Virus record (IMG/VR): IMGVR_UViG_3300045017_000165
Location: 20,701-84,700 of that record
Direction: 5' to 3' (one strand)
DNA: 64,000 nt
Source of the DNA: a virus
In this document: piece after piece, positions 16,477-40,758 of the stretch
Numbering within the stretch: position 1 is the stretch's first letter
Layout: each line of letters opens with the position of its first letter
Made by a program: the position numbers and the translations under genes
The notes under the pieces: model-generated
Databases searched by the model: none
The model's input: the letters and a program-made list of their open reading frames with translations, nothing else
Told to the model about the DNA's origin: nothing

Positions 16477-19400
16477 ATGAGAACATTTCACGGCTCCGCG
16501 CAATTCGATGCATTGAAAACTACTGTTACTGATGCGTACAAAAAACTATTTCCAGTTTATGCCAAGGGGCAGGAAGGCAAGAGTCCGTCACTCCACTTAA
16601 AGAATATTTGGGTAGATGATGCAGAGCTGGATCCCAACAACTTTACAGATCAGAAAAAAACTAAGCTCGCAGGAAGAACTTGGGGAGCTCCCGTATTTGC
16701 GGACATCGAATTGAAAGACCCCTCAGGTCATGTCATTGACAAACTAGATAAAATTCGCATCTCAACCATTCCAAGGCTAACCCCGCGTGGCTCCTACTTG
16801 GTGCAAGGTAGTGAATATCAGATAGCCAATCAGTTCCGCAGAAAGGCGGGCGTGTACGTTCTACCCATGGCTACTGGGGATCAGTTCAAGGCGGTGTTCA
16901 ACGTTCTGGGAGAAGGCTCACGCAACTTTGAAGTACACCTTGATCCTAAGTCCAATAAGTACGCACTAAAGGTAGGGCAGGGGTTCATGCCCCTCTACCC
17001 GTTCTTAAACGCGCTCGGTGCAAAAGACGATGACCTGAAAAAAGCTTGGGGTGAAGAGGTGTTCGCAGCCAATAAAGTTGACCCCAATAAGCACGTACAG
17101 AAATTGGCTGAAAAACTTACGCGAGTAAAGACAGACAACAAACAGACAGCCATCGAAGCGCTCCATAACTTCGGCAAAGCAGCGAAGCTAGATCCCTCTA
17201 TTACCGAGCTAACTCTTGGTAAAAGTTACGCGCAGCTCGATCAGCACGCGATAATCGCAGCCAGCAAAAAACTAAAGGACGTTTACCACGGCGTAGTCGA
17301 ACACGATGATCCCGAGAACATCCTCTTTAAAGAAGTTCTATCAGTTGAAGACATGCTTCACGATAAGCTTACCAGTAAAACCCAAACTGATGCTCTTAAG
17401 TATTCGCTATCCAGAAAGCTCGGAAAGCGCACTAAAATCAAAGACATCGTAGACTTCAGACGTCTGGCTGGTCCTGTGGAATCTTTCTTCACCTCAGACA
17501 CCAGAAGCAGTACCCCAGAGCAGTACAACCCTATCCACATGCTCTCAGAAAGTCAGAAAGTTACCCTGCGCGGTACTGGTGGCATTACTGACCCACACAC
17601 CATCACAAGTAGTGTGCGCGAAGTTCATCCATCTCACGTAGGATTCGTGGATCCGGTGCATACCCCCGAAGGTGAGAACATCGGCGTCACCATGCACCTA
17701 GCCGCTGGAGCAGTTAAAGACGGTCGCGCAATCAGAACTCCTGCAGTAAATGTACGCACTGGTAAAGAGGAACTCCTTACCCCTAAAGAACTGTACACGA
17801 AGGTAGTGGCATTCCCAGATGAAGCTAATATCTCAGATAAGGGTGTGCAGTTCAAAAATAAGCTAGTCAAAGCGCAGCGTCTTGGAAAGATGTTAGAAGC
17901 CGAGCAACACAGCGTGGACTACGTGATTCCGTCGCATACGACGATGTTCAGCTACGCTACGAATCTCGTGCCGTTCCTTCACAGCGATCAAGGTAATCGT
18001 ATCGCCATGGCTGCAAAACACTTGAGCCAAGCAATCCCACTAGTCGATCGTGATGCGCCAAACGTTCAAACTGAGGTTGCACCTGGAAAGAGTTTTCACG
18101 AGGTGATTGGTAGGCAGTTCGCGGTCCACGCCCCTGAAGACGGAGTAGTAACTAAAGTTACGTCTGACTTCATCGAGGTCGGTAAACATAAAATTCACCT
18201 CTATAATGATTTTCCGCTAAGACAAAAAACGCTCCTTCACCACGAACCGCTAGTTAAAGTGGGAGATAAAGTTAAGAAGGGTCAGCTCATCGCAGACTCC
18301 AACTTTACAAAAAATGGTACGCTTGCCCTCGGTAAGAACTTGAAAGTCGCTTACCTCCCGTATCCGGGTCTAACTTTCGACGACGGTATTGTCATCACCG
18401 AAAGTGCGGCTAAAAAACTTTCAACTGTCCAGGTGTACAAGCACGCGTTTGAAGTTGAGCCGGGAGCCAAGAAAACTGACCTCCGCATGTACTCGGCTTA
18501 CTTCCCGAACGTCATTGGAAAAGATCTGCATAAAAAGTTTGACGTTGACGGTGTCATTAAAAAAGGTGCTGTCGTAAACCCTGGGGAACTCGTAATCGCT
18601 GGTTTGAAGTATGATCTAGCCAATCCTGAACTCGCTACACTAAAGCGCATTAATAAATCCCTCGCACGTCCATGGTCAAACGCAGGACAACACTATTCGG
18701 GTGAATTCCCAGGAGTAGTGACAGATGTAGTTAAGCGTGCAGATACTGTAGAAGTCTATATTAAAGCCGTCGAGCCAGCCAGAGAATCGGACAAACTATC
18801 GGGCGTTCACGGCAATAAAGGCGTCATTACTAAAGTGATTCTCGATAGTGAAGCGCCAAGAACTAAAGACGGAAAAATACCCGACGTTATCTTGAATCCT
18901 CACGGGATCATCGGTCGTATTAACGCCGGACAAATATTTGAGTCCGCCGCAGGAAAAATTGCCGAGAAGACCGGAAAAACTTACGTGGTGAAAAACTTTA
19001 ACGGTAAGAACACCGGTAAGGAAATTCTGAAAGAACTTGAGGCTCATAATATCGATGACATGGAAGAAATGTTTCTTCCTAATGGAAAATCGATGGGCAA
19101 AGTTCACATCGGTAATCCCTATATTCTCAGACTCTCCAAAACAGGTAAGACTGGCTTCTCTGCCAGAATGCCTGGCAGCGGTTATGACCCGAACCAGCAA
19201 CCTACTAAAGGTGGTGAAGAAGGCTCTAAAGCTCTCGACCTGCTCACATTCTATTCGATGCTTTCTCACGGTGCTAAAAAAAACCTTGCAGACGCTCACC
19301 AGAAATCAGAAAAAAATGACGAGTACTGGCATGCAATTGAAATGGGAAAACCACTTCCAGCTCCACGACAAACCTACGCGTTCAACAAGTTCATCTCTCT

Positions 19401-22400
19401 GTTGCACGGTGCCGGCGTTAATACTGTTAAACAAGGTAATAACGTCATTCTCGCACCGCTAACAGATGGTGCTGTTAAAAGACTTAGTCACGGTGAAATT
19501 AAAGAACCAGAGTTTCTTCATGGAAAAGACTTAAAAGAAAAGAAGGGTGGCTTTTTCGACCCTGCGCTTACTGGTGGTAAAGCCGGCAAGAACTACACCC
19601 ACATCGAGCTGAAGGAGTATCTGCCAAATCCAGTGTTTGAGCGCCCAATCAGATCACTCTTAAATTTAACCGCTGCCGATTACGCTGATATAGTGAGTGG
19701 CACTAAACATGTTAGTACTGAGGGTAAAGTCCTGACCACTTCCGCTAAAGGGACTCTTACTGGAGGCAACGCTATCCAGCATCTTCTATCAAAGATAGAC
19801 GTAGATAAAGAAATAGAAGCTACCACCAAAAAGCTTCCTTCTATGCGAGAAGGAAACGATCTTAACCAGTTGAGCAGAAAACTTCGGTATCTGCACGCGC
19901 TTAAGGAGCTCGATCTTAAACCTCAAGACGCGTATGTTAGAAAACTAATTCCCGTTGTTCCGCCTGAATTCCGACCCATTTATGAAACGGCTAAACGTGG
20001 TTTGCAGGTGGCGCCAGTAAATGTTCTCTACCAGAACGTTGGTATCCTAAACAAGTCTCAAGATCTCCCCGTAATGTCTTTACTCGAAGATTCTGAGAAG
20101 AAGGACTTACGTACCGAGCTTTACCACTCGACTAAGACACTCGCTGGTCTCGAAGAGATCATGCGCACAAAAGAACAGCCAATAAGAGGTTTCCTATCGC
20201 AGATCACTGGTGACACACCCAAAACCAGTTTCTTCCTCAACAAGGTCATCAATAAACGACAAGACCTAGTAGGTCGCGGCGTTATTACAGCATCTCCTGA
20301 TCTCCACATCGATCAGCTAGGTATACCCGAGAAGATGGCTTGGAAAATTTTTCATCCATTTATCATTAGAGAGTTCACTTCATCCGGTATTACTCCAGAC
20401 ATCGCGAGAAAAGAAATCGAAGAGAAAACTCCCCGAGCGAAACAGTTCCTTCAGACTGCGATGGACAAGAGAACCGTTCTAATGAATCGCGCGCCGTCAC
20501 TACACAAATTCTCTATAATGGCGTTCAAGCCGACCATCACTGATGGACTTGCTATTAAAGTGCCCCCGCTAGTTCTAAAGGGGTTTGGCGGAGACTTTGA
20601 CGGAGATTTTCAACAAAATCGCGTACTTGTTCATCTCACAGAAAAAGTTTTGCTTGAGATTGAGGAGGTACTTGGGCATAGTTACGCCAAGGAGCGCGAT
20701 GTGACCGCCAGATATAAAGAATCAGTGGTGTTAAAGAAGGGCGAAAAAGTTCTCGCTATCGATCTACAAGATTTTCCTGTCGGAGCGCTGGTAGCGACTC
20801 GTGAAGCCTCGAAAGGGCAAATAGATCTCTATGAAGCTATTCCTGGTACAAACGTTATTGCGTACGATGAGCAGAGCGGACGAATCGAGTTAAAGCCGGT
20901 GACCTATTGGTCCAAGCACTACGACCGCGAAGTAGAAATCGTTACTTTAGTGTCAGGGCGTCAAATCGTAACTGATGACGACCCCAGAGCCGTGTATGGA
21001 ATTCCAGCAGGATTTCTGTCACCTGCTAGGTTTACACCAGAACACGCCGTAGCTAAAACTGTATTAGTACCGCGTGCTATAAACATTAACCCCGTTGAGT
21101 CTATCGTAACCACGTATGTAGATCTCGAGACCGAGGAAGGGGACCTACTAGCTTTACCGCTCAACGAAAATCTTGGCTACCTGATAGGAGCCGCCGCAGG
21201 AGATGGCTGGAGTGACGACAGGCACTTCTGTCTGGCGTCAATTACTCCCGAAATTCCGGCTAAAGTTTTTGCCGCTCTAAAAGATCTCGGGCTAGTTAAA
21301 CCGGACAGTAAATTCTATAAGTCGGATCGTAAACAGGCTGGGCTGGGGGACGTTAGCTCCAAGTATTCGTGTGGCGGAGCTAGACTAGCCAAGTTCATTA
21401 AGCACAGCATCGGGCATCGAGCGAAGAATAAGCACTTACCCGAGTACTTTCTGGGTGCGAGCAGAGAGTTTAGAGAAGGGTTATTTGCTGGTTTGATGGA
21501 CACGGATGGGTCAATCTCGGTATCGAACGCAAAAGATAAAGTTTCACCGCAGTTGATGGCTAACTACAGCACTAATAGCCTTCGTTTAGCGAGAGAAATC
21601 CAGCTTCTCGCGCGAACGCTGGGGATTAGAGCTAGCATTACTGCGTCCAAAACTCCTGCGGGTAATCCATGTTGGATGATGAGCTTTTCAAACGTAGACA
21701 TCAAACAGTGGGATGGTAAGAGTATGCAACATCCCGGAAAACTAGCCAAGCTCGCTAGTATCCAAGAGATAAAGAAAACCGCCTCCACAGCTAAACTCGA
21801 TATCATACCCATCACCAAAGTGTTGGCTACGTTTATCGCTAAAACATTAGGAGCTCCAAGAACCGCTCCAACCGAACACAAAAGACTCTACGGAATTGCT
21901 AATCAGGCTGCTAAAGATGGATTCGTTTCAAGGCAGTCCATCGATGCTGTCATTGAAAAGATTTCACGCAAAGTCGTAGCCTCCCATCCCGACGGTCAAA
22001 GGTGGCTGGCACTACTAGACAATCGCGATGTCACGTGGGATCGCTGCGTATCTTTCGAGCGTACGGGTATCAAAGAAACCGGCTACGATCTCACAGTGCC
22101 AGGACACGAAACTTTCATGGCTGTCGACGGTGTCATCCTCTCTAACACAAGCACCATCCACGTGCCGACAAGCGACGAAGCCGTACGAGAATCTTTCAAG
22201 ATGCTCCCTTCACAAAATCTGTTTAAGCCCGGGACCGGGGAGTTGATGATTCAACCATCGCAAGAAAACGCGATCGGTCTTTATTTCCTTTCTCAGTCAA
22301 AGGAAGGGCGCGCCAGAATAAATGCGCTACTTCCCAAAGACCACCACATCTCAGCAGCTCTTGATAAGAAGGGGCTGGGTAGTCTCTTCAACAGTCTAGC

Positions 22401-24144
22401 TAAAACTCACACCAGACAATACGCCGACATTGTCCACAAACTTAAACAACTCGGCGATTCGGAAACCTACGCCAGAGGCTTTTCAGTTGGTGTAAAAGAC
22501 GTGGTTACCAGCACTGCGACAAGAGATAAGATTTTCGACATAGCAGAAAAGAAAGTGGCAGCACTCAAAAAAGCTAAGAAGCCGGGTCTAGAACTAGATC
22601 ACGAGATCGCAGGTATCTACACTTCAGCTGCTAAAGAGGCGTACGAACATACTAAACAAGATCTGAAGAAAAGCGATAATGCGTTCTACCATATGGTCAC
22701 CTCAGGAGCGCGTGGTAAGGACTCACAGCTACAACAGCTAGTCACTGCTCCAGGCATCGTGACCGACGCTAAAGATCGCCCAGTACCGATCCCACTAAAG
22801 CGTTCTTATGCCGAGGGTATTTCTACAAGTGATTACTTCGTTTCCTCTTACGGCGTTCGTAAGGGTATGATAGATAAATCACTTCAGACTTCGCAGCCCG
22901 GCGCCATGAACAAAAATATCATGGCGAATACCGTGGACAATATCATCACATCTCAAGACTGTGGAGTACGAAAGGGTATTGAACTACCGATCTCGAGTCA
23001 CGATGTTAACAACCGTTTCCTTGCTTCAGATCAGCACGGCTTCAAACGTAACACCCTAGTTACACCGCAGCTAATCTCGAACCTCACCAAACGTGGAGTA
23101 CGAACAGTACAGGTAAGAACTCCTCTGGAATGCATCGCTCCTAAAGGAACTTGCGCACACTGTTTCGGTCTTGATGAGCACGGTAAGGCCCCAGAACTCG
23201 GCGACAATATTGGCGCAAAAGCTGGTCAGGCACTATCCGAGCCTCTTACCCAATCCAGCATGAAAACCTTCCATACTGGCGGCGTAGCTGGTGAAGTTTC
23301 TATGCTCGGTGGATTTCCGCGCATTAAGCAGCTTCTCACAATGCCTAAGTATGTTGCTGGCGAAGCTCCACTAGCAAAGTTAGACGGCAAAGTGACGCAG
23401 ATTAAAACTACCACCAATGGTGCGCATGTAGTTATTGCGCCTCTCAGTAAAGAAGGAAAGCCTGAGATTCACCCGCTTCCACCCAACAGAAAAATAAAAG
23501 TTAAACTGGGGGATAAAGTGCAGGCGGGGGATCCTCTCACCCACGGGGTTCTTAACCCACAGGAAATCCTCAAGTACCGCGGAATGAAAGCCGCACAAAA
23601 TTACGTGGTGGATGAGCTAAAGAAAACTTACGACGAGATTTCGGGTGTCGGTAGGATGGAGCGAAGAGCCATCGAGACGCTTGTAAGATCGTTCGGCAAC
23701 TACACAAAAGTTAAAAGCGCTCCTAAGCAGGCTGACTTTAAACCAGGCGATATCATACCGTTCACTGTTGCAAATCACTACAACGAGACCCGTGCAGAGA
23801 CTTTACCAACCGCCGACTCAATGGGGTATAAACTCAGGTCTAGCGTTGGTAAACTCCCCCAATTCCATGAGATCGGGCACAAGGATATCGAATATTTGCA
23901 CGGGCTGGGCTACAATAAAGTGGACGTCGTAAAGGATCCCCTAATCCACACCCCGATAATGAAGGGCGTGGAAAGGCTCCCTAAAGAAAAGAAAGATTGG
24001 CTAGCTCAGCTTGGATACCAGCACATTAAGGACACATTATCCGAAGGTGCTGCGGAGGCTTGGAAATCAAGTCTTCAGGGCGAGCATCCAATCCCTGCTT
24101 ACGCATTTGGCGCCACGTTCGGTCAGAAAAAGGAGCACTACTAA
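16477..24144 (+). CDS. rpoBC: Multisubunit-type DNA-directed RNA polymerase, fused beta + beta', intein-containing
   Basis: beta motifs REVHPSH..DPVHTPEGENIG, DKLSGVHGNKG, PDVILNPHG; beta' motifs PVVPPEFRP, LMNRAPSLH, GDFDGD, SGARG, MKTFHTGG. Confidence 0.95.
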   Translation: MRTFHGSAQFDALKTTVTDAYKKLFPVYAKGQEGKSPSLHLKNIWVDDAELDPNNFTDQKKTKLAGRTWGAPVFADIELKDPSGHVIDKLDKIRISTIPRLTPRGSYLVQGSEYQIANQFRRKAGVYVLPMATGDQFKAVFNVLGEGSRNFEVHLDPKSNKYALKVGQGFMPLYPFLNALGAKDDDLKKAWGEEVFAANKVDPNKHVQKLAEKLTRVKTDNKQTAIEALHNFGKAAKLDPSITELTLGKSYAQLDQHAIIAASKKLKDVYHGVVEHDDPENILFKEVLSVEDMLHDKLTSKTQTDALKYSLSRKLGKRTKIKDIVDFRRLAGPVESFFTSDTRSSTPEQYNPIHMLSESQKVTLRGTGGITDPHTITSSVREVHPSHVGFVDPVHTPEGENIGVTMHLAAGAVKDGRAIRTPAVNVRTGKEELLTPKELYTKVVAFPDEANISDKGVQFKNKLVKAQRLGKMLEAEQHSVDYVIPSHTTMFSYATNLVPFLHSDQGNRIAMAAKHLSQAIPLVDRDAPNVQTEVAPGKSFHEVIGRQFAVHAPEDGVVTKVTSDFIEVGKHKIHLYNDFPLRQKTLLHHEPLVKVGDKVKKGQLIADSNFTKNGTLALGKNLKVAYLPYPGLTFDDGIVITESAAKKLSTVQVYKHAFEVEPGAKKTDLRMYSAYFPNVIGKDLHKKFDVDGVIKKGAVVNPGELVIAGLKYDLANPELATLKRINKSLARPWSNAGQHYSGEFPGVVTDVVKRADTVEVYIKAVEPARESDKLSGVHGNKGVITKVILDSEAPRTKDGKIPDVILNPHGIIGRINAGQIFESAAGKIAEKTGKTYVVKNFNGKNTGKEILKELEAHNIDDMEEMFLPNGKSMGKVHIGNPYILRLSKTGKTGFSARMPGSGYDPNQQPTKGGEEGSKALDLLTFYSMLSHGAKKNLADAHQKSEKNDEYWHAIEMGKPLPAPRQTYAFNKFISLLHGAGVNTVKQGNNVILAPLTDGAVKRLSHGEIKEPEFLHGKDLKEKKGGFFDPALTGGKAGKNYTHIELKEYLPNPVFERPIRSLLNLTAADYADIVSGTKHVSTEGKVLTTSAKGTLTGGNAIQHLLSKIDVDKEIEATTKKLPSMREGNDLNQLSRKLRYLHALKELDLKPQDAYVRKLIPVVPPEFRPIYETAKRGLQVAPVNVLYQNVGILNKSQDLPVMSLLEDSEKKDLRTELYHSTKTLAGLEEIMRTKEQPIRGFLSQITGDTPKTSFFLNKVINKRQDLVGRGVITASPDLHIDQLGIPEKMAWKIFHPFIIREFTSSGITPDIARKEIEEKTPRAKQFLQTAMDKRTVLMNRAPSLHKFSIMAFKPTITDGLAIKVPPLVLKGFGGDFDGDFQQNRVLVHLTEKVLLEIEEVLGHSYAKERDVTARYKESVVLKKGEKVLAIDLQDFPVGALVATREASKGQIDLYEAIPGTNVIAYDEQSGRIELKPVTYWSKHYDREVEIVTLVSGRQIVTDDDPRAVYGIPAGFLSPARFTPEHAVAKTVLVPRAININPVESIVTTYVDLETEEGDLLALPLNENLGYLIGAAAGDGWSDDRHFCLASITPEIPAKVFAALKDLGLVKPDSKFYKSDRKQAGLGDVSSKYSCGGARLAKFIKHSIGHRAKNKHLPEYFLGASREFREGLFAGLMDTDGSISVSNAKDKVSPQLMANYSTNSLRLAREIQLLARTLGIRASITASKTPAGNPCWMMSFSNVDIKQWDGKSMQHPGKLAKLASIQEIKKTASTAKLDIIPITKVLATFIAKTLGAPRTAPTEHKRLYGIANQAAKDGFVSRQSIDAVIEKISRKVVASHPDGQRWLALLDNRDVTWDRCVSFERTGIKETGYDLTVPGHETFMAVDGVILSNTSTIHVPTSDEAVRESFKMLPSQNLFKPGTGELMIQPSQENAIGLYFLSQSKEGRARINALLPKDHHISAALDKKGLGSLFNSLAKTHTRQYADIVHKLKQLGDSETYARGFSVGVKDVVTSTATRDKIFDIAEKKVAALKKAKKPGLELDHEIAGIYTSAAKEAYEHTKQDLKKSDNAFYHMVTSGARGKDSQLQQLVTAPGIVTDAKDRPVPIPLKRSYAEGISTSDYFVSSYGVRKGMIDKSLQTSQPGAMNKNIMANTVDNIITSQDCGVRKGIELPISSHDVNNRFLASDQHGFKRNTLVTPQLISNLTKRGVRTVQVRTPLECIAPKGTCAHCFGLDEHGKAPELGDNIGAKAGQALSEPLTQSSMKTFHTGGVAGEVSMLGGFPRIKQLLTMPKYVAGEAPLAKLDGKVTQIKTTTNGAHVVIAPLSKEGKPEIHPLPPNRKIKVKLGDKVQAGDPLTHGVLNPQEILKYRGMKAAQNYVVDELKKTYDEISGVGRMERRAIETLVRSFGNYTKVKSAPKQADFKPGDIIPFTVANHYNETRAETLPTADSMGYKLRSSVGKLPQFHEIGHKDIEYLHGLGYNKVDVVKDPLIHTPIMKGVERLPKEKKDWLAQLGYQHIKDTLSEGAAEAWKSSLQGEHPIPAYAFGATFGQKKEHY
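20608..22146 (+). mobile_element. Intein with LAGLIDADG homing endonuclease in RNAP beta' active site
   Basis: 513-aa insert between DFDGD and TSTIHVP; LGYLIGAAAGDG and LFAGLMDTDG; ends GYDLTVPGHETF...ILSN/T. Confidence 0.88.
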
Positions 24145-27196: not shown

Positions 27197-27762
27197 GTCT
27201 TGATCCTCTATCCGACTGGAAGGCAGCTATTGACGCACTACCTGCAGCAAATTCCACCCCAGCTGGAACTCTCAACCTAGCTAATGCAATCTCGGAACTG
27301 GAAGATAAAGTGCAAGCCGGTTCAAAGGGTAGTCCTGGTATTCTAACTACAAACTCCTCCCTCTTCGCTGCAGGACTGGCGGCTATGGCGCCAACATCTG
27401 GTACTGGTTGGGTAGATACGATCGTAAGCGCATGGCAAGCCGCGCTTACCGCTAGCTCCATCACCCCTAGTACTGTTAATGATCCTACCACATGGGTAGC
27501 CTCATCAACCGATACTTTAACCCTAGCAGTCGTACCAGCTACTATCACTACTCTGAGCAGTGCCGTCAGCGAGCTGAGGTCCGAACTAATGGAATTGGCT
27601 GCGTCTTTTCAAGGGGGTGGAGATCCAGCCATACAGCAGAACGCCACCGAAAAATTTGCGGGAGCCTTCCGTAAAGCAGTGTTAAAATTCAAGTTTAATT
27701 GCATTGGTCTGGTGGTAGCTACTCCGCCGACTCCACTACTAGTAGCCATTGACGCGAAATAA
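27193..27762 (+). CDS. Putative spike-associated/baseplate protein
   Basis: 189 aa, Ala-rich, ATGA-coupled to spike gene. Confidence 0.5.
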   Translation: MSLDPLSDWKAAIDALPAANSTPAGTLNLANAISELEDKVQAGSKGSPGILTTNSSLFAAGLAAMAPTSGTGWVDTIVSAWQAALTASSITPSTVNDPTTWVASSTDTLTLAVVPATITTLSSAVSELRSELMELAASFQGGGDPAIQQNATEKFAGAFRKAVLKFKFNCIGLVVATPPTPLLVAIDAK

Positions 27763-27831
27763 ACGTCTATTTATTCAAATACAATAGTAGGATATTATTG
27801 GGTAGACATCACACGATGAGGAGACAACCAA

Positions 27832-29889
27832 ATGCCAGGTCTTGAGAACCTTTTTGCCGCCGAACCCAAACTTCCTTCAGTTCAAACGCTTAAGATGCCA
27901 GAGAATCCTCAAGAATGGGCAGAAGCCATAACGGTCGCTGCCAGAGAACGCTATCCTGATTTAGCTCATCTACCACTTGTCATTGAATTCCGTAAAAAAG
28001 ACGAGCAAGCCGGCACCGCGGTAGGGGCTATTCACGTTACAAGCGACGACGATAAAAAAACAATCTTTCTCCCGATCGTCATTAAAAAGTTTGAACTATC
28101 ACCTCTCGACGTATGGATGGAAAAAGACACCCAAGCCATTCACCCCATTAAGCCGGATACTTTTAAAAAGGCGTTCTTTAATCCGTCTTCAGCTAAAGGA
28201 CTCGATGTCCGCCCTACAGATGTAGCCGGTCAGTACTTCAACGACCCCTCCACTTGGAGTTCCAACTATCCACCACTCCAAGGTCGATACAGCTACGCTT
28301 CTGCTGGTTATCCAATTCTTGATAGCATTAGCGACACCATCCGAGAAAAAGAGCTGAAAGAGTTTCGTGAAACCCTGCAAAAAAATGCCTTCGTTCTAGC
28401 TAAATTTAAACGCGGTCCTCACTACGAAGTAATTCAAAAGCTAGCGGCTAAAATTCCTACTAAGGATCCCGACTACGTAGCTTCTGCCACTAAGCTTATT
28501 CCGGTGGGAGCGGCTAGCATTAAACGTGAGGGTAAAGATAAGTATTCGGTCCTTTCCATGGCAGACCAAATGTTTGATCTCGCTGCTAGTGAATATCTGG
28601 ACGAGTATAACTGCCGTAACTGGCTTTCAAAAATTACTGCCTTTTGTAAAGACTCTATCCACGACCTTCCACAACAAGGAGAAAAACTCCTTGTAACGAA
28701 ACCGGCTCCGAAAGGAACCGTTTATCTATTTGATCAGACAAAATACTCCCCGGTCAGCGCTGACGAGTTCGCAGCATACGTAGTAAAGACTAAAACCGGT
28801 GTTCAGTCACACGGCGTAGTTTTCCCAAACGTGGTTGAGTTCAACGGTGATAAGGCTCCTGTAAAACTTTTCGTCAGTCAGTCACACTGCAGTTTCCAGA
28901 CAAACATCGCCGGAGAAAAGAAACCAGATAGCGAAATGATGGCTAAAGTTCTTAAGCCATCCGCCGCTAGAGTGGGGCAGACCGGAACATTCGTATTTAT
29001 TGACGATGGTCAGGCAATCGCCACCGTCCCTGTCACAATCAAGGCGATCGAAGAATACGGTCAAGCCCGTATTACCGCAATCAAACTGGATGGCACAAAA
29101 ATCAAAATTAGCCGCGGCTATTCCGACGATCCTCCAAAGATGACAGAAGCGTTGCCGTGTACTAAACCTGCTAAGACTAAAGATAAATTCCTAGATGTTC
29201 ACTCTATGATCGAGGATCGTCCTAAAGAATATACTATTCCAAGATCAATGATCTGGATTCCTATGGAAGGTTTCCAGGAAGTTTCTAGCTCTCCAAAAGA
29301 ATGGATGCAGAAAGAGGCTGCTAAGGTATCTCACGATCCGTTTAACATTCGCTATACAGGCATTGTTTATGAAGCCTATGGTAGTGATATCGAAAAACGC
29401 GCTTTCAGCGAAAGAGAGCTGAAAGTAACCCTAGCCAACAAAGGCGCAGACGCAGAGATGATCGACTCTGTTATCAAAGTTGCGAGGGCTAAAGGTAAAT
29501 GTTGTGTTCACGGTCTTCGACAGCTTAAGAAAAAAGCTGACATTATTAAAGTTGCAACAGATGCCTCCGCACGCTTAGAGAAAGCCTGCGCAGAGCTGAA
29601 GAGAGACTTAGTCAAGTTCGCGGCGGAAGTCGGCGACTCATCAATGACAGTTGATGCCATGTTGTCACTTAACTTTGTAAACCCCGAGAACTTGGCTAAG
29701 TTCGTTTCCTACAAGCCTGTGTTTGAGAAAGTCGCTGACTACCTGGCGGAGCTCTTGATGGCGGCAAGACTGGGTATTAAAGACATGTCCGAGAGTGCGC
29801 TAGTAACTGCGATCGCTCGTATTCAAGAAGTAATCGATGGTCTAGCTAAAGTTCAAACAAGCCTTAGCGGATCAGGAGAAAAGGTTTAA
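27832..29889 (+). CDS. Large putative head/core protein
   Basis: 685 aa; RBS GAGGAG; K-x-A motifs (QKLAA, QKEAA, EKRAF, IKVAT, VKFAA, EKVAD). Confidence 0.55.
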   Translation: MPGLENLFAAEPKLPSVQTLKMPENPQEWAEAITVAARERYPDLAHLPLVIEFRKKDEQAGTAVGAIHVTSDDDKKTIFLPIVIKKFELSPLDVWMEKDTQAIHPIKPDTFKKAFFNPSSAKGLDVRPTDVAGQYFNDPSTWSSNYPPLQGRYSYASAGYPILDSISDTIREKELKEFRETLQKNAFVLAKFKRGPHYEVIQKLAAKIPTKDPDYVASATKLIPVGAASIKREGKDKYSVLSMADQMFDLAASEYLDEYNCRNWLSKITAFCKDSIHDLPQQGEKLLVTKPAPKGTVYLFDQTKYSPVSADEFAAYVVKTKTGVQSHGVVFPNVVEFNGDKAPVKLFVSQSHCSFQTNIAGEKKPDSEMMAKVLKPSAARVGQTGTFVFIDDGQAIATVPVTIKAIEEYGQARITAIKLDGTKIKISRGYSDDPPKMTEALPCTKPAKTKDKFLDVHSMIEDRPKEYTIPRSMIWIPMEGFQEVSSSPKEWMQKEAAKVSHDPFNIRYTGIVYEAYGSDIEKRAFSERELKVTLANKGADAEMIDSVIKVARAKGKCCVHGLRQLKKKADIIKVATDASARLEKACAELKRDLVKFAAEVGDSSMTVDAMLSLNFVNPENLAKFVSYKPVFEKVADYLAELLMAARLGIKDMSESALVTAIARIQEVIDGLAKVQTSLSGSGEKV

Positions 29890-31617: not shown

Positions 31618-34560
31618 ATGGGAGACTCAGAGTTAGATTTCTTGCGCAGCGGCAGTACTGACGAGATAGAAGCCAACAGAGCAGCTTCCAGCGATGAGAG
31701 ACTCAAATCTCTAGCCTCTCCGGAACGCGTCGCCAAAGTCATGTCTGCGCTTAAATCTGATGGCTCCACCAAGACCCTGATCAAGGCTAAGAAGTCAGAC
31801 TGGATACGAGCCCTGATCCACCTCGACGGCACTAACTTCGACTTCTCTGGACGCGACTACCTAAAACAGATCTACGATACGAAGCATCCGCATAAACTTC
31901 TTGTCACGGGGCGTCAAGTTGAAAAATGTCAACCGATTTGGTCAACTATTCACAGAAGCGATGGGGGTGAATGTCGCATAGATGAACTTCGCTTAGGGGA
32001 CTCTATCTGCGCCATGAACCAAGGGGGCATACAGACGCAGGACTTAGTGTTAGCCTCGGAATCTAACGGTGTTAAAAAGTGTCTTCGCATAAAAACTCGC
32101 CTAGGCTCTACGATTGAAGCCACGTTGAACCACCCCTTTAGAAAACTACTCACATGGGAGCAAGCCTCTAAGCTAATAGTTGGTGATAAAATCGCGGCAC
32201 TTCGCAGTGTAGGGTTTTTTGGAGATAAGCAAAACGATCTGGCGATGGTAGTGGGGCTTCTGTTTGGAGATGGAAGCTTCAGTAATAGACTCATTTCGCT
32301 GGCGTGTGGAAGAGCTCCTATCCAAGAACTATTTGAAAAAGAGTATATTAGGCTAGAGGGTATAGCGCCTAAGTTTAGTTTGTCGAAAGGCTCAAAAACA
32401 CAACGAACCTATCGAGTCAGTGTCTCTACTAAAATAGCAGCGTGGTTCTACGAGCACGATCTGATAGGTATGGTTGCAAGCATCAAAAAATTACCCGCCG
32501 AAGTTTTCTCTTACAATAAAGAGTCAACTCGAAATTTGATCCGAGGACTTTGGGCAACCGATGGGCATTGTAAGAACGTAACCTCTTCTAAGATTGATTT
32601 AGTTTACTGCTCCACTAGCGAAACACTTGTTAGACAAGTGAGACTACTACTAAGAAAGTTTGGAGTTCTTACAACACTTCGTACGTATAAGCCCCAGCGA
32701 GGACAAAAAGCATTCCTTATTAGAGTAGTCACAAGAAAATCCATAGAAGCTTTTCATCGTGACATTGGACCTATTCCAGGAAAACCATTTAATATTCCCG
32801 GGTGTGAGAGCAATAGCAATTTAGATACTGTCCCTAGAGAAGTACTCAACGTATTGAAGAAAGCAAAACGTGCTGCCGGTTATGGTGGAAGATGGGGCAG
32901 CGACAACAAATGCTTTGAGCGAGATTCAGGGTTCCGGTTTAAGTCAAATTATTGCCCAACATTTGAGAAGTTAGCTGCTGCGCAGTCTTTACTCAACAAC
33001 TCTACCATACAGAAAATCTTAGACTCGGATATTATTTGGGATGAGATTGTATCAATAGAGGATTTAGGAGACCAACCAACGTGGTCTATTCAAACCCAAA
33101 CAGAAACCTACATCTCTGATTTCATAGTCCAGCACAACTCTACAATGCTAGCTAACGAGATCATCATCAACTCGGTAGTGATACCTTATTTCAAAACTCT
33201 ATATGTATCGCCGTCGCATGATCAGACAAGACAGTTCAGCAACGGAAAGTTAAAGCCGTGGATCGAAGATAGTCCTCTTATTCAAAAGTACTTCCAGAAC
33301 TCTGCCGTATCAAAGCAGGTCTTTGAGAAGAGCATGTCAAACGGATCGATTGCGTTTCTCAGGTCAGCTTTTCTAAGTGCTGACCGAACACGCGGAATAT
33401 CTAGTGATATACTATGCTTAGACGAGATTCAGGACATTTTAACGTCAAATATTCCGGTCATTACCGAGACCTTATCGCATAGTAAGTATGGGTATAAGAT
33501 TTTCGCCGGCACTCCAAAGACTCTTGAGAATCCTATCCAGCAGTACTTTGAGATGTCTAGCATGTGCGAGTGGTTGATACCTTGTTTCGCACACTCGCCG
33601 CCGCACTGGAACTACATTGATGAGAAGAGTATCGGTAAGGACGGACCAATATGCAATAAATGCGGCAAGCCCATTAATCCTGCTGAAGGTAAGTGGATAG
33701 CATTCAATGATAGTCGAGATATTCTGGGGTTTAGGATTTCACAGATCATGGTGCCATGGATCTATCAGAATCCTCTGAAGTGGAAGGAGTTCTTGTGGAA
33801 GTACGAGAACCTTTCGAGAGGTATTTTTTATAACGAGTGCTTGGGTATTTCTTTTGACTCCGCAAGCAAGCCTATTACGCGCACTGAATTAGTTGAGTGC
33901 TGCTCGTCAAAACATCCACTACGCTATCATCCAGACTCCTTCACGCATAAGATAGATCTATTTGCCGGTGTGGATTACGGCGAGGGCTCGGACGGAACAG
34001 AACGGGGTATGAAAGGAAGGATGAAGAACGCTTCGTACACAGTTCTTACGATAGGAGTCTATCTCGACCCAACACATTTTCATTACTTATTTATGAAACG
34101 GTATACTGGAGAGGAAGCTCTCCCAGCTAACTGTATCGGTGACATTATAAATATTGCACGAGCGTTTAGGGTTAAGTGCGTTGGTGCTGACTGGGGTCAT
34201 GGATGGGGAGTTAATGAGCAACTGGAAACTGCTCTCGGAAAGTCGCGCGTAATTAAGTTTCAATACGTAGGTAATCAGCGCGAGCGTAAAAAGTTTGATG
34301 AGATAGGACTTAAATACCAACTAGGTAGAACAGAAGTGATGACAGACTTTTTTACAGCAATAAAAAACCACCACATAATTTTTCCGGCATGGGAGTCAGT
34401 TAAAGATTATCTGTGTGATATCGAACATGTTTACGCCGAGTACGGAGATGGGGGAAGGTCGCTTAAGTATGACCACAAACCATCGGAGCCTGATGACGCG
34501 CTTCACTCAATGATTTATTGTAAGGAAGCCGCGGACAACTATTTCGGTAAGCACAAATAG
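31618..34560 (+). CDS. terL: Terminase large subunit (lambda GpA-like), intein-containing
   Basis: Walker A GRQVEK/ST split by intein; Walker B ILCLDEIQD; AGTP; Cys-rich segment; FYNECLG; nuclease AGVDYG and DDALHS. Confidence 0.9.
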   Translation: MGDSELDFLRSGSTDEIEANRAASSDERLKSLASPERVAKVMSALKSDGSTKTLIKAKKSDWIRALIHLDGTNFDFSGRDYLKQIYDTKHPHKLLVTGRQVEKCQPIWSTIHRSDGGECRIDELRLGDSICAMNQGGIQTQDLVLASESNGVKKCLRIKTRLGSTIEATLNHPFRKLLTWEQASKLIVGDKIAALRSVGFFGDKQNDLAMVVGLLFGDGSFSNRLISLACGRAPIQELFEKEYIRLEGIAPKFSLSKGSKTQRTYRVSVSTKIAAWFYEHDLIGMVASIKKLPAEVFSYNKESTRNLIRGLWATDGHCKNVTSSKIDLVYCSTSETLVRQVRLLLRKFGVLTTLRTYKPQRGQKAFLIRVVTRKSIEAFHRDIGPIPGKPFNIPGCESNSNLDTVPREVLNVLKKAKRAAGYGGRWGSDNKCFERDSGFRFKSNYCPTFEKLAAAQSLLNNSTIQKILDSDIIWDEIVSIEDLGDQPTWSIQTQTETYISDFIVQHNSTMLANEIIINSVVIPYFKTLYVSPSHDQTRQFSNGKLKPWIEDSPLIQKYFQNSAVSKQVFEKSMSNGSIAFLRSAFLSADRTRGISSDILCLDEIQDILTSNIPVITETLSHSKYGYKIFAGTPKTLENPIQQYFEMSSMCEWLIPCFAHSPPHWNYIDEKSIGKDGPICNKCGKPINPAEGKWIAFNDSRDILGFRISQIMVPWIYQNPLKWKEFLWKYENLSRGIFYNECLGISFDSASKPITRTELVECCSSKHPLRYHPDSFTHKIDLFAGVDYGEGSDGTERGMKGRMKNASYTVLTIGVYLDPTHFHYLFMKRYTGEEALPANCIGDIINIARAFRVKCVGADWGHGWGVNEQLETALGKSRVIKFQYVGNQRERKKFDEIGLKYQLGRTEVMTDFFTAIKNHHIIFPAWESVKDYLCDIEHVYAEYGDGGRSLKYDHKPSEPDDALHSMIYCKEAADNYFGKHK
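31927..33138 (+). mobile_element. Intein with LAGLIDADG endonuclease in terminase P-loop
   Basis: Starts CQPIWS, block B TLNHPF, VGLLFGDG and IRGLWATDG, ends VQHN/S; 404 aa. Confidence 0.92.
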
Positions 34561-35697: not shown

Positions 35698-35817
35698 AAC
35701 ATCCTCCTATTTGTTTCAGTTACTTGTTTAATTAACTCGACCTGACTGTGTTTAAATCTTTAATTAAGACGTACCAACGAGCTGATGAACAGCAGTACTC
35801 GTGGGTACGTCTCATTT

Positions 35818-36070
35818 CACTACGACACGTCACTTGACATTACTTTAACCTCACGGAACTTTACCTTACTTCACATGACGGCACCACGACCATACTTTAC
35901 TCGACCATACGTTACCATGACTTTACTCTACTCAGCAGTACCATACGGTGCTTCACAGTACCCGCACGCCACTCGACTAAACGGTACCATACCTCCACAA
36001 CACAGAACGGCACAAAACCCCACCCCACATTACCAATACTGGACTGGACAGGACGACACATAACCCTTAC
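35818..36070 (-). repeat. 5-nt periodic GY-NNN array 1 (candidate guide-RNA array)
   Basis: 49 consecutive units (41 pentamers, 8 hexamers), all ending AC/GC on + strand; begins 27 nt after the Cas7-like stop. Confidence 0.85.
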
Positions 36071-36097: not shown

Positions 36098-36889
36098 TTA
36101 CGCAGATTCGATCGTGCACTTGAACTGTCCGTAGCCTGCGTTTCTCCACTGACCTAAGCCCGACACTCTTCCGTATGAGAAGAGTTTCTTTAGAGCTTCT
36201 TCAGTGAGCGGGGAATTCTCAAGCACGAGAAGTGTGAACTTGAGAGCGGCTCCGGATTCAATGCACTCGCTTTTAGCTACAGAGACGCGTGGACCTTGAG
36301 CTGTCATAGCTCTCAGTGAACGCTCACAGTACTTGATTGAGCCATCAGCACTCTTCATCACGTCTTTATCAAACGAGATGAATTGTTGCTCAATTGTTAC
36401 GTGTTGATTAATGATCGATTCCGTATAGCTTGCTGAGTTGAGGATCGTACCATTCTTTTTAGGAAGAGTACGAGCTACCGCTTCAGCAGCTGCTTTTAGG
36501 AATCCTTTAATCATGTGATCTCCGATACACGGCATTCCTGCCTTGTCGCGGAAGAACACTGTAACGCCTCGAAGTTCTTGCTCGTCGAGAGTTTCTTTTA
36601 AAGATTCGAGTTCACCTTTGATAGCAAGTTCGCGTTCTTCTGAGGTGAACTTTCTACCCACGAGAGTTTCAAGCTTATCGAGAAGCTTATCGGTTTCAAG
36701 TTTACCGCGCTCTTCGGTGATCTGTAGAGCTTCTAGGTACTTATTAATCTCAGCGTTGTAGCTACCTTTCTCTTGAATAAGCTTACGCTGCTTTTGAATG
36801 ATATGTTGTTCGTGAATCGACGGATCCGCCGGATTCGTGCCCAAAATGTCACGTGTGAATGACAAGACTACTTTATATTCTTTAAACAT
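36098..36889 (-). CDS. Stand-alone Cas7/RAMP-superfamily-like protein
   Basis: N-terminal strand YKVVLSFTRDILG; PCIGDHMIKGFLK (RAMP P.I.gs.lKG.lr-like); C-terminal Gly loop GLGQWRNAGYGQF. Confidence 0.8.
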   Translation of the reverse strand: MFKEYKVVLSFTRDILGTNPADPSIHEQHIIQKQRKLIQEKGSYNAEINKYLEALQITEERGKLETDKLLDKLETLVGRKFTSEERELAIKGELESLKETLDEQELRGVTVFFRDKAGMPCIGDHMIKGFLKAAAEAVARTLPKKNGTILNSASYTESIINQHVTIEQQFISFDKDVMKSADGSIKYCERSLRAMTAQGPRVSVAKSECIESGAALKFTLLVLENSPLTEEALKKLFSYGRVSGLGQWRNAGYGQFKCTIESA

Positions 36890-36910: not shown

Positions 36911-36950
36911 AGCGGTCACGCTCTACACTAGTTCATAGAGCGTGACCGCT
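36911..36950 (-). terminator. 15-bp perfect hairpin just upstream of the Cas7-like gene
   Basis: AGCGGTCACGCTCTA/TAGAGCGTGACCGCT, followed on minus by TTTATTT. Confidence 0.65.
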
Positions 36951-37707: not shown

Positions 37708-38523
37708 TTACTCGGCATTTATTGAGATACCGGTAGTACCTGTTAACGAGGTCATAAGTGCAGGATCTGAACTAAAGTCTACACTCGTCACTGTAGCTCC
37801 ATAGAACCCCGTGGGGGCAGCTATGTCTACACAGGTAGATGAGTCGTAGGCTTTATAGGATCTAACAGTCCTTGACATTATGTCGTTAGTTAAAGCGACA
37901 TAATATACACCGTTATTGTTCAGCAGGACTTTGAGCATAGACCCAGCATCAGGATCATTATGACCTGAGGTTAGTCGGTTAGTCCTGACCACAGGAGTTC
38001 CGACGCACCCCAAACTAGGGTAGTAGATACGGGCACGAAGTCCGTACTCACTACCGAACTCGTTCTTATTTATGTTGACTACGAACCCACCAGTAGTATG
38101 CCAAAACGCAATGCCAACTGCGCTTTGACTAATTAGAGTTCCCATTACAACACCGAGCGAGTTCCTTACTACGAACCGAGGAGCAGCTGTACCAGCAGGA
38201 CCCTGGGCACCTTGAGCGCCCTGAGCACCTGTAGCTCCAACCGCACCCGCAGCACCTGTAGCTCCTGTGGCGCCTTGTGGTCCTTGAGGACCTTGAGCGC
38301 CATTAGATACTACAGCAGTGTTACCGCTTGGATCTGTGATACGAACGCCGTCTGACAGCTGAGTAATGGTGATTGAACCAACACTCATACTTTCACCGAC
38401 GCTAAGGTTAGTAGCCGCACCGTCCACTGGCATGACTGTTACGGATTCACTTACACAACCTGAGAGAACAGCTACTGAAGTTACAATCAAACTACCAACT
38501 GACATCATCATGAGCTTATTCAT
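37708..38523 (-). CDS. Predicted lipoprotein with collagen-like Gly-X-Y stretch
   Basis: Lipobox LSGC; about 12 G-X-Y triplets (GAQGPQGPQGATGATG...). Confidence 0.75.
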   Translation of the reverse strand: MNKLMMMSVGSLIVTSVAVLSGCVSESVTVMPVDGAATNLSVGESMSVGSITITQLSDGVRITDPSGNTAVVSNGAQGPQGPQGATGATGAAGAVGATGAQGAQGAQGPAGTAAPRFVVRNSLGVVMGTLISQSAVGIAFWHTTGGFVVNINKNEFGSEYGLRARIYYPSLGCVGTPVVRTNRLTSGHNDPDAGSMLKVLLNNNGVYYVALTNDIMSRTVRSYKAYDSSTCVDIAAPTGFYGATVTSVDFSSDPALMTSLTGTTGISINAE

Positions 38524-40224: not shown

Positions 40225-40758
40225 GTAACGTTACCGTACCTTACCTTACGAAACCCCAACGCAACGCTACTGAACTCCACATAACTATACCACCACACAA
40301 CATAATCACCACTACCGCGCAACACATTACATTACCCCGCCAAGACAGTGCATTACTTCACCGTACTAAAGCTAAGCCCTACCGCACAGTACCCTACCCG
40401 AACCGGTTTCTACCGGAACACAACACTACTAAACTTAACTACACCATACCGTCACGTTACATGACGAAACTGCACTGACGCAGTACATTGCTTTACCGAG
40501 ACTTTACTACACTCAACGACACTTCACGCTACCCAACCGTGACTTTACTGCACCCTACTACACATCACGATACCTCACTGTGGCTTTACCCCACGACACA
40601 CCACCCAATCAAACATCACCATACCGCACGGGACTCTACCGAGACGCTGCCATGCTGGACGTTACTTTGCCATAGCAATACTGCACAACACGTTACCCGA
40701 CCTTACCATAGCATCACCTTACAACACGAGACCTTGCGTCACTGTAGCATCGCAGTAC
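40225..40758 (-). repeat. 5-nt periodic GY-NNN array 2 (candidate guide-RNA array)
   Basis: About 100 units, nearly all ending AC/GC on + strand, 16 hexamers; fills the whole intergenic space. Confidence 0.85.

What the first reader, a model, noticed from the sequence alone, without database searches (positions are those of the whole stretch)
35818..36070. Array 1 is punctuated by 6-nt units that may delimit individual guides
Seen: read on the minus strand, eight hexamers (gtaagg, gtattg, gtggag, gtgcgg, gtcatg, gtcgtg, gttaaa, gtagtg; 7 of 8 are GTNNNG) separate runs of 5, 7, 5, 8, 5, 7 and 4 pentamers. The short/long alternation gives segments of 26-46 nt, or paired units of about 70-77 nt. 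The variable bases do not repeat, so this is not a decayed microsatellite. Inference: the hexamers are register breaks marking processing sites or boundaries between guides.
Basis: partly seen in the sequence, partly recalled or inferred. Interest (0 to 1): 0.8.

Follow-up and report, generated by a model that had tools for sequence, protein, structure and literature searches.

The report
Hexamer-punctuated VIPR guide-RNA array of a phage
The five-base rhythm with regular six-base steps is real and is the guide-RNA array of a phage VIPR system, a CRISPR-related RNA-guided DNA silencer first described in 2026 preprints; the six-base steps behave like separators between short guide cassettes, but no RNA ends or targets could be obtained to prove it.

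Summary
Observation confirmed. On the minus strand, 36070-35818 reads as 8 hexamers and 41 pentamers (runs 5,7,5,8,5,7,4). Every unit starts with G then T (two with C).

The array lies 28 nt downstream of a 263-aa gene (36098-36889) with a Cas7/Csm3-type RAMP fold. This gene has at least 554 relatives in viral contigs, and nearly all 83 loci examined carry similar 5-nt arrays beside it. That is the VIPR system (Vipr protein plus vrRNA) of 2026 bioRxiv preprints. Their Methods mention YNNNG repeats and "staggered" arrays without tails. This scan has already reported the same kind on at least 17 other genomes.

The hexamers are not random:
- In 20 non-redundant arrays, 264 spacings peak at 4-6 pentamers.
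- 15 of 24 arrays begin with a hexamer.
- In 203 hexamers of the GT clade the sixth base is G in 77%, so each block starts with one GGY.
- In a gut-phage clade the hexamers are near-invariant (GCRASG), and related arrays differ by whole blocks.

So "hexamers mark boundaries between guide cassettes" is the best reading. It is unproven: no RNA runs exist and the target searches gave nothing above chance. The short/long alternation is not a family rule.

Verdict: new member of a known kind.

The parts
36098..36889 (-). vipr gene: 263-aa stand-alone RAMP (Cas7/Csm3-like) protein, with the G-loop motif GLGQWRNAGYGQF near the C-terminus
   Evidence: ORF. Neither Pfam nor PHROG recognises it. It has 274 or more homologues and at least 554 viral loci. 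The AF2 model has pLDDT 74.5. Foldseek's best hits are type VII Cas7 and Csm3, E 6e-7. VIA-align gives Z 11.9 and 11.7. hhalign to SUSP1 Vipr gives probability 78%, E 1.8e-5, over the G-loop.
35818..36070 (-). Array 1 (vrRNA array): 8 hexamers delimiting 7 blocks of 4-8 pentamers; unit grammar G-Y-N-N-N
36065..36070 (-). hexamer 1 (GTAAGG), the first unit of the array
36034..36039 (-). hexamer 2 (GTATTG)
35993..35998 (-). hexamer 3 (GTGGAG)
35962..35967 (-). hexamer 4 (GTGCGG)
35916..35921 (-). hexamer 5 (GTCATG)
35885..35890 (-). hexamer 6 (GTCGTG)
35844..35849 (-). hexamer 7 (GTTAAA), the only one that does not end in G
35818..35823 (-). hexamer 8 (GTAGTG), the last unit of the array
35766..35813 (-). 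stable stem-loop 4 nt after the array: a candidate 3' tail or cap of the last guide, or a terminator without a U-run
   Evidence: Both the RNA fold and its centroid keep this hairpin. Coordinates were read off the folded stretch.
36911..36950 (-). strong terminator-like hairpin (17-bp stem plus T-run) just upstream of vipr; it separates vipr plus array 1 from the preceding unit
40225..40758 (-). Array 2: a second, 'solo' array of about 103 units with the same grammar (87 pentamers, 15 hexamers, one 4-mer). It starts at the stop codon of an 83-aa ORF and is 3.3 kb from vipr.

Best explanation
The stretch is a transcribed guide-RNA (vrRNA) array of a phage VIPR system. The 263-aa RAMP protein encoded just upstream (Vipr) is expected to polymerise along the RNA, one protomer per pentamer. 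Each protomer would hold the constant G-Y and present the following variable bases for gapped pairing with DNA of a competitor; this is inferred from the published type II mechanism.

The hexamers are a conserved punctuation mark. Each is one extra base, usually G, placed before a G-Y, so that every block starts with one full G-G-Y. The grammar is H(P3-9 H)n, and it cuts the array into cassettes of 26-46 nt that evolve as modules. Most likely each cassette is one guide unit of a tail-less 'staggered' array. The +1 register break would then either stop filament growth or mark a processing site.

My odds:
- VIPR array: about 0.9.
- Hexamers are cassette or guide boundaries: about 0.55-0.6. The confidence figure given for this explanation refers to this second, narrower claim.
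For: Shown here:
1. The unit grammar is as described, and only two such arrays exist in the genome.
2. The adjacent protein has a Cas7/Csm3 RAMP fold.
3. Its G-loop aligns to that of SUSP1 Vipr (PDB 36pp). The W and R that bind G2 and Y3 in the published structure are kept. D177, which binds G1, is Q here, matching repeats that keep G-Y but lack the first G.
4. Protein and array co-occur in nearly all 83 related loci. The fixed dinucleotide is clade-specific, GT or GC.
5. The mean unit length is 5.13-5.20 in almost every array.
6. The 264 internal spacings peak at 4-6 pentamers. Spacings of 0-2 occur 30 times against 117 expected for random placement.
7. In the GT clade the 6th hexamer base is G 77% and A 14%. 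The next unit is always G-Y and is then a purine in 83%.
8. Gut-clade hexamers are near-invariant (GCRASG). L040 equals L024 minus four whole blocks, and L039 equals L036 plus three duplicated blocks.
9. Arrays start with a hexamer in 15 of 24 cases and within one unit in 23 of 24. Array 1 also ends with one.
10. Homology breakpoints are enriched at hexamers. Exact sharing of blocks is highest at the true boundaries: 120 against 75-114 for shifted ones.
11. Positions 3-4 of the pentamers have codon-position-1-2 composition, as the published wobble-skipping code predicts.

From the literature:
- VIPR, YNNNG repeats and staggered arrays.
- One protomer per repeat, and vrRNA length setting filament length.
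Against: - There are no RNA data, so transcription, processing and ends are inferred.
- If only two bases per unit pair, as in type II, a block carries 12-18 nt here and only about 6-12 nt in the gut clade. That is short for a stand-alone guide.
- In SUSP1 the penultimate repeat of the vrRNAs is itself a 6-nt unit, and the structure paper resolves all 12 protomers. A hexamer therefore need not stop a filament.
- Block-wise indels could simply reflect recombination at the only repeated 6-9-nt strings.
- The breakpoint counts are pseudo-replicated among related arrays, and the shifted-boundary control shows only a modest excess.
- In the closest array pair (L001/L082), one replacement starts exactly at a hexamer but ends inside a block.
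- No vap accessory gene was recognised.
Confidence: 0.58

Rival explanations
1. The array is a VIPR vrRNA, but the hexamers are internal features of long continuous filaments: tolerated one-base bulges or strain-relieving hinges about once per helical turn. Under this reading the functional guide spans several blocks or the whole array.
For: - There is one hexamer per about 5.7 units, close to the 5-6 protomers per turn reported for type II filaments.
- SUSP1 vrRNAs carry a 6-nt unit inside a tract that is fully coated by 12 protomers.
- At two paired bases per unit, single blocks are short for specific targeting.
Against: - Spacing varies from 0 to 11 (sd 1.8), which is not what a geometric requirement gives.
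- Uninterrupted runs of 9-11 pentamers occur.
- Arrays begin and end with a hexamer, which a hinge role does not need.
- Hexamers have their own consensus and carry little or no variable information in the gut clade.
- The same block recurs in different contexts.
- No multi-block match was found under any rule tried, but the databases searched may simply lack the targets.
Confidence: 0.25
2. The hexamers are scars of how the array grows, that is junctions left by cassette insertion or duplication. They would have no role in RNA processing or filament assembly.
For: - Blocks are duplicated and lost whole.
- A 41-nt tandem duplication in array 2 equals one block of 7 pentamers plus a hexamer.
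Against: - A neutral scar would not keep a G at 77% in the GT clade or an invariant GCRASG in the gut clade, across proteins only about 30% identical.
- It would also not be required as the first unit of arrays.
Confidence: 0.1
3. This is a DNA-level signal rather than an RNA. G-T every 5.14 bp is half a helical turn, which could serve a DNA-wrapping protein, an origin or a curvature element.
For: The mean period of 5.14 is close to half of 10.3-10.5 bp. No transcript has been observed.
Against: - The array is strictly strand-specific, lies on the gene strand and always sits beside a RAMP RNA-binding protein.
- The fixed bases match the residues that bind vrRNA bases in the solved Vipr complex.
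- The published homologous systems are RNAs.
Confidence: 0.03
4. The stretch is protein-coding: the 92-aa ORF at 35785-36063 on the + strand.
For: An open frame exists there.
Against: A 5/6-nt period is incompatible with codon periodicity. Homologous arrays differ by 5- and 6-nt units and by whole blocks. The frame is a by-product of the stop-poor A/C-rich complement.
Confidence: 0.01

Closest known systems
VIPR systems with 'staggered' vrRNA arrays and alternative YNNNG repeats (bioRxiv 10.64898/2026.04.26.720920, Methods and legend of fig. S18)
   Same: - A phage-encoded lone RAMP protein next to a tail-less array of pentanucleotide units.
- G-Y constant with three variable bases, which is YNNNG read in another phase.
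[quoted passage not shown] That fits a single extra G shared at each junction.
   Different: The accessible text gives no statistics or consensus for the junctions. It says that sRNA-seq confirmed only the ribozyme arrays and the single-vrRNA systems, not the staggered ones. Which of the seven types this clade belongs to could not be determined. No vap gene was recognised here.
Type II VIPR of Escherichia phage SUSP1 (KT454805.2; Vipr = PDB 36pp; structure paper 10.64898/2026.04.26.720927)
   Same: - RAMP protein with the same G-loop core, G-x-G-(D/Q)-W-R.
- Pentamer vrRNA repeats on the gene strand, both upstream and downstream of the gene.
- A 3' hairpin after array 1.
- A 6-nt unit, again made by an extra G, near the 3' end of each SUSP1 vrRNA.
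   Different: - SUSP1 uses GGY/NN, with 9-16 repeats per vrRNA.
- Each SUSP1 vrRNA has its own conserved pseudoknotted tail.
- The SUSP1 protein is 195 aa against 263 aa here.
- Sequence similarity is limited to about 50 C-terminal residues.
- SUSP1 has vap1; none was recognised here.
Class 1 CRISPR Cas7 backbone (Csm3, Cmr4, type VII Cas7)
   Same: The same fold (Z 11-12), and periodic binding of a guide RNA with a thumb that breaks pairing at fixed intervals.
   Different: There are no CRISPR repeats or spacers, no Cas5, Cas6, Cas10 or Cas1 and Cas2, and the period is 5 nt with sequence-specific constant bases instead of 6 nt. It is not a CRISPR-Cas system.

Membership tests
VIPR (Vipr + vrRNA) | The protein is a minimal single-RRM RAMP with a G-loop and a thumb | tested here: met
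   The AF2 model has pLDDT 74.5. Foldseek's top 50 hits are all Cas7, Csm3 or Cmr, E down to 6e-7. VIA-align gives Z 11.9 (rmsd 2.7, 134 aligned) to type VII Cas7 and Z 11.7 to Csm3. A profile hit to Csm4 and Cas7 G-loops has E 0.004.
VIPR (Vipr + vrRNA) | Homology to an experimentally characterised Vipr (SUSP1, PDB 36pp) | tested here: inconclusive
   hhalign of the family profile against SUSP1 Vipr gives probability 78% and E 1.8e-5, but only over 51 C-terminal columns. hmmsearch against the PDB chain gives E 0.4. The solved Vipr did not appear in the two fold searches.
VIPR (Vipr + vrRNA) | G-loop residues that hold the constant bases (D177 binds G1, W178 binds G2, R179 binds Y3 in SUSP1) | tested here: met
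   W248 and R249 are invariant in 22 family members. The D position is an invariant Q247. This fits repeats that keep G-Y and have lost G1. The residue roles are taken from the structure preprint.
VIPR (Vipr + vrRNA) | An adjacent non-coding tandem pentanucleotide array, on the gene strand, with constant and hypervariable positions | tested here: met
   Information content is 1.7 and 1.1 bits at positions 1-2 and 0.06-0.11 bits at positions 3-5.
VIPR (Vipr + vrRNA) | The protein-array association is conserved among relatives, mostly in viruses | tested here: met
   Arrays of 150 nt or more lie beside the gene in nearly all of 83 loci from IMG/VR and JGI contigs.
VIPR (Vipr + vrRNA) | An accessory vap gene in the locus (typical, not universal) | tested here: inconclusive
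   No neighbouring ORF of the window recurs in the 80 related loci then held. None has a Pfam or PHROG match.
VIPR (Vipr + vrRNA) | A structured 3' tail capping each vrRNA | tested here: inconclusive
   One strong hairpin follows array 1. There is none between blocks and none after array 2. The preprint allows tail-less staggered arrays.
VIPR (Vipr + vrRNA) | The vrRNA is expressed and bound by Vipr | not testable with these tools
   No RNA run is listed for this lake-water phage.
VIPR (Vipr + vrRNA) | Gapped targeting of DNA (pair two bases, skip one) | tested here: inconclusive
   Positions 3-4 have codon-1-2 composition. No target was found above chance.
CRISPR-Cas | A repeat-spacer array with repeats of 20 nt or more, plus cas1/cas2 or a multi-subunit effector | tested here: not met
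   There is no Rfam CRISPR match and no such repeats. The neighbouring ORFs have no Cas domains.

The most novel reading that the evidence does not exclude
The single extra G may be a general VIPR 'end-of-guide' mark shared by tail-less staggered arrays and by tailed type II vrRNAs. SUSP1 vrRNAs carry GGTRTG as their penultimate unit. The +1 register break could act as the ruler that sets filament length, or as the processing site. That would explain how one transcript of 50-260 units yields discrete guides without Cas6-like repeats, ribozymes or tails.
Probability: 0.3. Interest if true: 0.55.

Novelty: new member of a known kind. Interest (0 to 1): 0.35.

Why it matters
VIPR was described only in 2026, and its tail-less 'staggered' arrays have, as far as the accessible text shows, not been verified by RNA sequencing. 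This lake-water phage and its relatives give a clean, quantifiable grammar: a hexamer, then 3-9 pentamers, repeated. They also give a residue-level correlate, with the G1-binding Asp replaced by Gln where the repeat has lost G1. If the extra G defines guide ends, it is the simplest known way of delimiting guides in an RNA-guided system, and it would help in engineering multiplexed VIPR arrays. As an annotation the finding is ordinary: this scan has already reported the same kind of array on many other genomes.

Tried and rejected
- Rfam and tRNA scans gave nothing. megablast to phages gave nothing.
- My first ideas were a TRAP-like RNA-binding site array and a half-helical-turn DNA signal. I dropped both once the RAMP fold and the VIPR literature were found.
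- RNA evidence: no RNA holder is listed. Laying four DNA runs showed only six low-depth strain variants, all at variable positions or at a hexamer's sixth base, and no indels.
- Local target searches found no excess over shuffles. I tried NNN with 0-3 skipped bases and NN at positions 3-4 or 4-5 with periods 2-4 and three ways of handling hexamers. The k=2 hits were array-to-array homology.
- A near-match search of the phage's own genome gave nothing significant in 76 tests.
- Collection scans for block 5 of array 1: positions 4-5 at period 3 gave 0 hits, and NNN at period 4 gave 0 hits.
- Positions 3-4 at period 3 for the same block gave two contigs carrying the same gene (L085, L086). All 18 of 18 bases match, in frame, with the skipped base at the wobble position.
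- That hit is not evidence. About 0.8 hits are expected by chance, judged from the 12-13 hits of the 16-nt patterns. No other block matches there. The contigs are 56% GC against 46% for this phage, and the gene is unrelated to this phage's genes.
- The 12-unit block of array 2 gave 0 hits in viral and genome contigs.
- Two 16-nt patterns gave 13 and 12 scattered hits. They are enriched in the wobble phase, as codon-like composition alone predicts, with no convergent target.
- Two of my own analyses were confounded by low sequence complexity and are not used: unit matching with one mismatch and gapped global alignment.

Full report
**The observation**

Read on the minus strand, 36070-35818 parses without remainder into 49 units. 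There are eight hexamers: GTAAGG, GTATTG, GTGGAG, GTGCGG, GTCATG, GTCGTG, GTTAAA and GTAGTG. They are separated by runs of 5, 7, 5, 8, 5, 7 and 4 pentamers. Forty-seven units begin with GT and two with GC. The three following positions are nearly free. The whole 84.7-kb genome holds only this array and a second, 534-nt one at 40758-40225. No other dinucleotide forms a period-5/6 chain longer than nine units. The description is therefore accurate and far from chance.

**What it sits in**

The window is a phage genome from lake-water metagenomes. It carries a family A DNA polymerase, a collagen-like tail fibre and an intein-bearing large terminase.

Array 1 begins 28 nt after the stop codon of a 263-aa ORF (36098-36889, minus strand), which has no Pfam or PHROG match. 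A 17-bp terminator-like hairpin precedes that ORF. A stable stem-loop follows the array.

The protein has at least 274 homologues at 50-78% identity. A profile built from them finds at least 554 loci in viral contigs. My chain detector found 5/6-nt periodic arrays directly beside the gene, on the gene strand, in nearly all of the 80 loci fetched, and in three further metagenome loci. Most lie downstream; in one gut-phage clade they lie upstream. The constant dinucleotide is clade-specific, GT or GC.

The predicted structure (pLDDT 74.5) matches only Cas7-type RAMPs:
- Foldseek E 6e-7 to type VII Cas7 and Csm3.
- VIA-align Z 11.9 and 11.7.

**What it is**

A literature search led to four 2026 bioRxiv preprints on VIPR (Viral Interference Programmable Repeat) systems. 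These consist of a lone ancestral RAMP, Vipr, that polymerises one protomer per pentanucleotide repeat along a vrRNA. Each protomer sequesters the constant bases (GGY in type II) and presents the variable ones for gapped pairing with DNA, skipping every third target base. The result is silencing of competing phages and satellites.

The Methods of the first preprint mention alternative YNNNG, NNNGG and NNNNG repeats. G-Y-N-N-N is YNNNG in another phase. Its Results and the legend of fig. [quoted passage not shown] The text says sRNA-seq confirmed the ribozyme arrays and the single-vrRNA systems, not the staggered ones.

I fetched phage SUSP1 and located its four GGY/NN vrRNAs. I confirmed that its 195-aa ORF is the 'SUSP1 Vipr protein' of PDB 36pp.

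A profile comparison of my family with that protein gives 78% probability, E 1.8e-5, over the G-loop. SUSP1 reads G-V-G-D-W-R where the family here reads G-L-G-Q-W-R. In the published structure D177 reads G1, W178 stacks on G2 and R179 holds Y3. Here W and R are invariant and the Asp is an invariant Gln. That matches a repeat which keeps G-Y but has lost the first G.

I file the locus as a VIPR system with confidence of about 0.9. No vap accessory gene could be recognised.

**The hexamers**

This is the actual finding, and it generalises. The evidence is:

- *Frequency.* In almost every array the mean unit length is 5.13-5.20, which is one hexamer per six units or so.
- *Spacing.* In 20 non-redundant high-quality arrays the 264 internal spacings have mode 5, mean 4.7 and sd 1.8. 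Spacings of 0-2 pentamers occur 30 times where random placement predicts 117.
- *Consensus in the GT clade.* Among 203 hexamers from 12 arrays, the sixth base is G in 77% and A in 14%. The next unit is always G-Y, followed by a purine in 83%. The 'hexamer' is therefore best described as one extra G that gives each block a single full G-G-Y at its start.
- *Consensus in the gut clade.* In a gut-phage clade with GCR/NN units, the hexamers are nearly invariant (GCGAGG, GCAAGG, GCAACG, GCGACG).
- *Modular evolution.* In that clade related arrays differ by whole blocks. L040 is L024 without four consecutive blocks. L039 is L036 with three blocks duplicated. The same block recurs in different neighbourhoods.
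- *Array ends.* Arrays begin with a hexamer in 15 of 24 cases and within one unit in 23 of 24. Array 1 both begins and ends with one. This is the repeat-spacer-repeat logic of a delimiter.
- *Breakpoints.* Breakpoints of homology between arrays are enriched at hexamers. For left ends, 29 of 85 fall exactly after a hexamer, against a background of 0.20. These counts are pseudo-replicated among related arrays.
- *Shift control.* Exact sharing of blocks is highest with the true boundaries: 120 matches against 75-114 when the boundaries are shifted by 1-3 units.
- *Duplication in array 2.* A 41-nt tandem duplication in array 2 equals one block.
- *No alternation.* The short/long alternation seen in array 1 is not general. 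The lag-1 correlation of run lengths is +0.21.

**How it most likely works**

The constant G-Y of each pentamer would be held by Vipr protomers, and positions 3-4 would probably be the paired bases. Their dinucleotide composition fits codon positions 1-2 better than any other model, both in the window's arrays and in ten other arrays. This is what the published wobble-skipping code predicts.

The +1 G breaks the register once per 4-9 protomers. I infer that it either ends a filament or marks a cut. The long transcript would then give discrete guide units of 26-46 nt.

This step is inferred, not shown. There are real arguments against it:
- A block carries only 12-18 paired bases here, and fewer in the gut clade.
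- In SUSP1 every vrRNA has a 6-nt unit (GGTRTG, again an extra G) as its penultimate repeat, and all 12 protomers are resolved on such an RNA. A hexamer can therefore be accommodated inside a filament.
- Block-wise indels could come from recombination at the only repeated strings.

The main rival is that the hexamers are hinges or bulges within long filaments. I put this at about 0.25.

**Tests that failed to decide**

No RNA-seq run holds this phage. DNA contigs of four further lake runs showed only point variants at variable positions.

Target searches under several pairing rules gave nothing above chance. I searched the phage itself, about 2.8 Mb of fetched loci, IMG/VR and the species-genome collection.

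There was one exact 18/18 match. Block 5 of array 1, read at positions 3-4 with one base skipped, fits an ORF of two related viral contigs, in frame and with the skipped base at the wobble position. About 0.8 such hits are expected by chance, judged from the yield of 16-nt patterns. No other block matches there. The contigs differ in G+C from this phage and share no genes with it. I treat it as a lead only.

**Novelty**

The kind is known from the 2026 preprints. This scan has already reported hexamer-punctuated VIPR arrays on at least 17 other genomes, and I found those notes after reaching the same identification.

- the spacing distribution;
- the extra-G consensus;
- the start-and-end grammar;
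- the Asp-to-Gln correlate in the G-loop;
- the presence of the same extra-G unit in SUSP1 vrRNAs.

The verdict is a new member of a known kind, of moderate interest.

Noticed in passing
L084 (Escherichia phage SUSP1, KT454805.2) 27621-27966 and 29166-29226, minus strand: All four vrRNAs of the experimentally studied type II system have a 6-nt unit as the penultimate repeat, just before the last repeat and the tail. It reads GGTATG, GGTATG and GGTGTG in three, with a variant in the fourth. It is again a pentamer plus an extra G. The readable text of the preprints does not mention it.
   Followed up: partly
window 40225-40758 (-): There is a second 'solo' array of about 103 units, 3.3 kb from vipr. 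It starts at the stop codon of an 83-aa ORF and runs into the start of the next ORF, with no 3' hairpin. It contains two paralogous 41-nt blocks and several block ends of the form GTAAA-GYCWYR. That form also occurs in array 1 and in L001 and L082.
   Followed up: partly
window 31618-34560 (+): The large terminase subunit (GpA ATPase domain) is interrupted by an intein with a LAGLIDADG domain.
   Followed up: no
window 16477-24144 (+): This is a 2555-aa ORF. Earlier first-reader notes call it a single-chain beta-beta' RNA polymerase with an intein. I did not examine it here.
   Followed up: no
window 37708-38523 (-), around 38224-38274: This is a collagen-repeat tail-fibre gene. Contigs from other lake runs break off into unlike sequence exactly at the collagen repeats, which suggests strain-variable repeat numbers.
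   Followed up: no
L064 7562-8924: A 172-kb viral contig carries a 1.36-kb array of about 264 units (215 pentamers, 43 hexamers) after its vipr homologue. It was the longest array seen.
   Followed up: no
L085 1579-1604 (-) and L086 185-210 (-): There is an exact 18/18 gapped match to block 5 of array 1 (positions 3-4, one base skipped). It lies in frame in a 352-aa ORF next to the major head protein gene of a 56% G+C phage. The number of such hits is about what chance predicts.
   Followed up: yes
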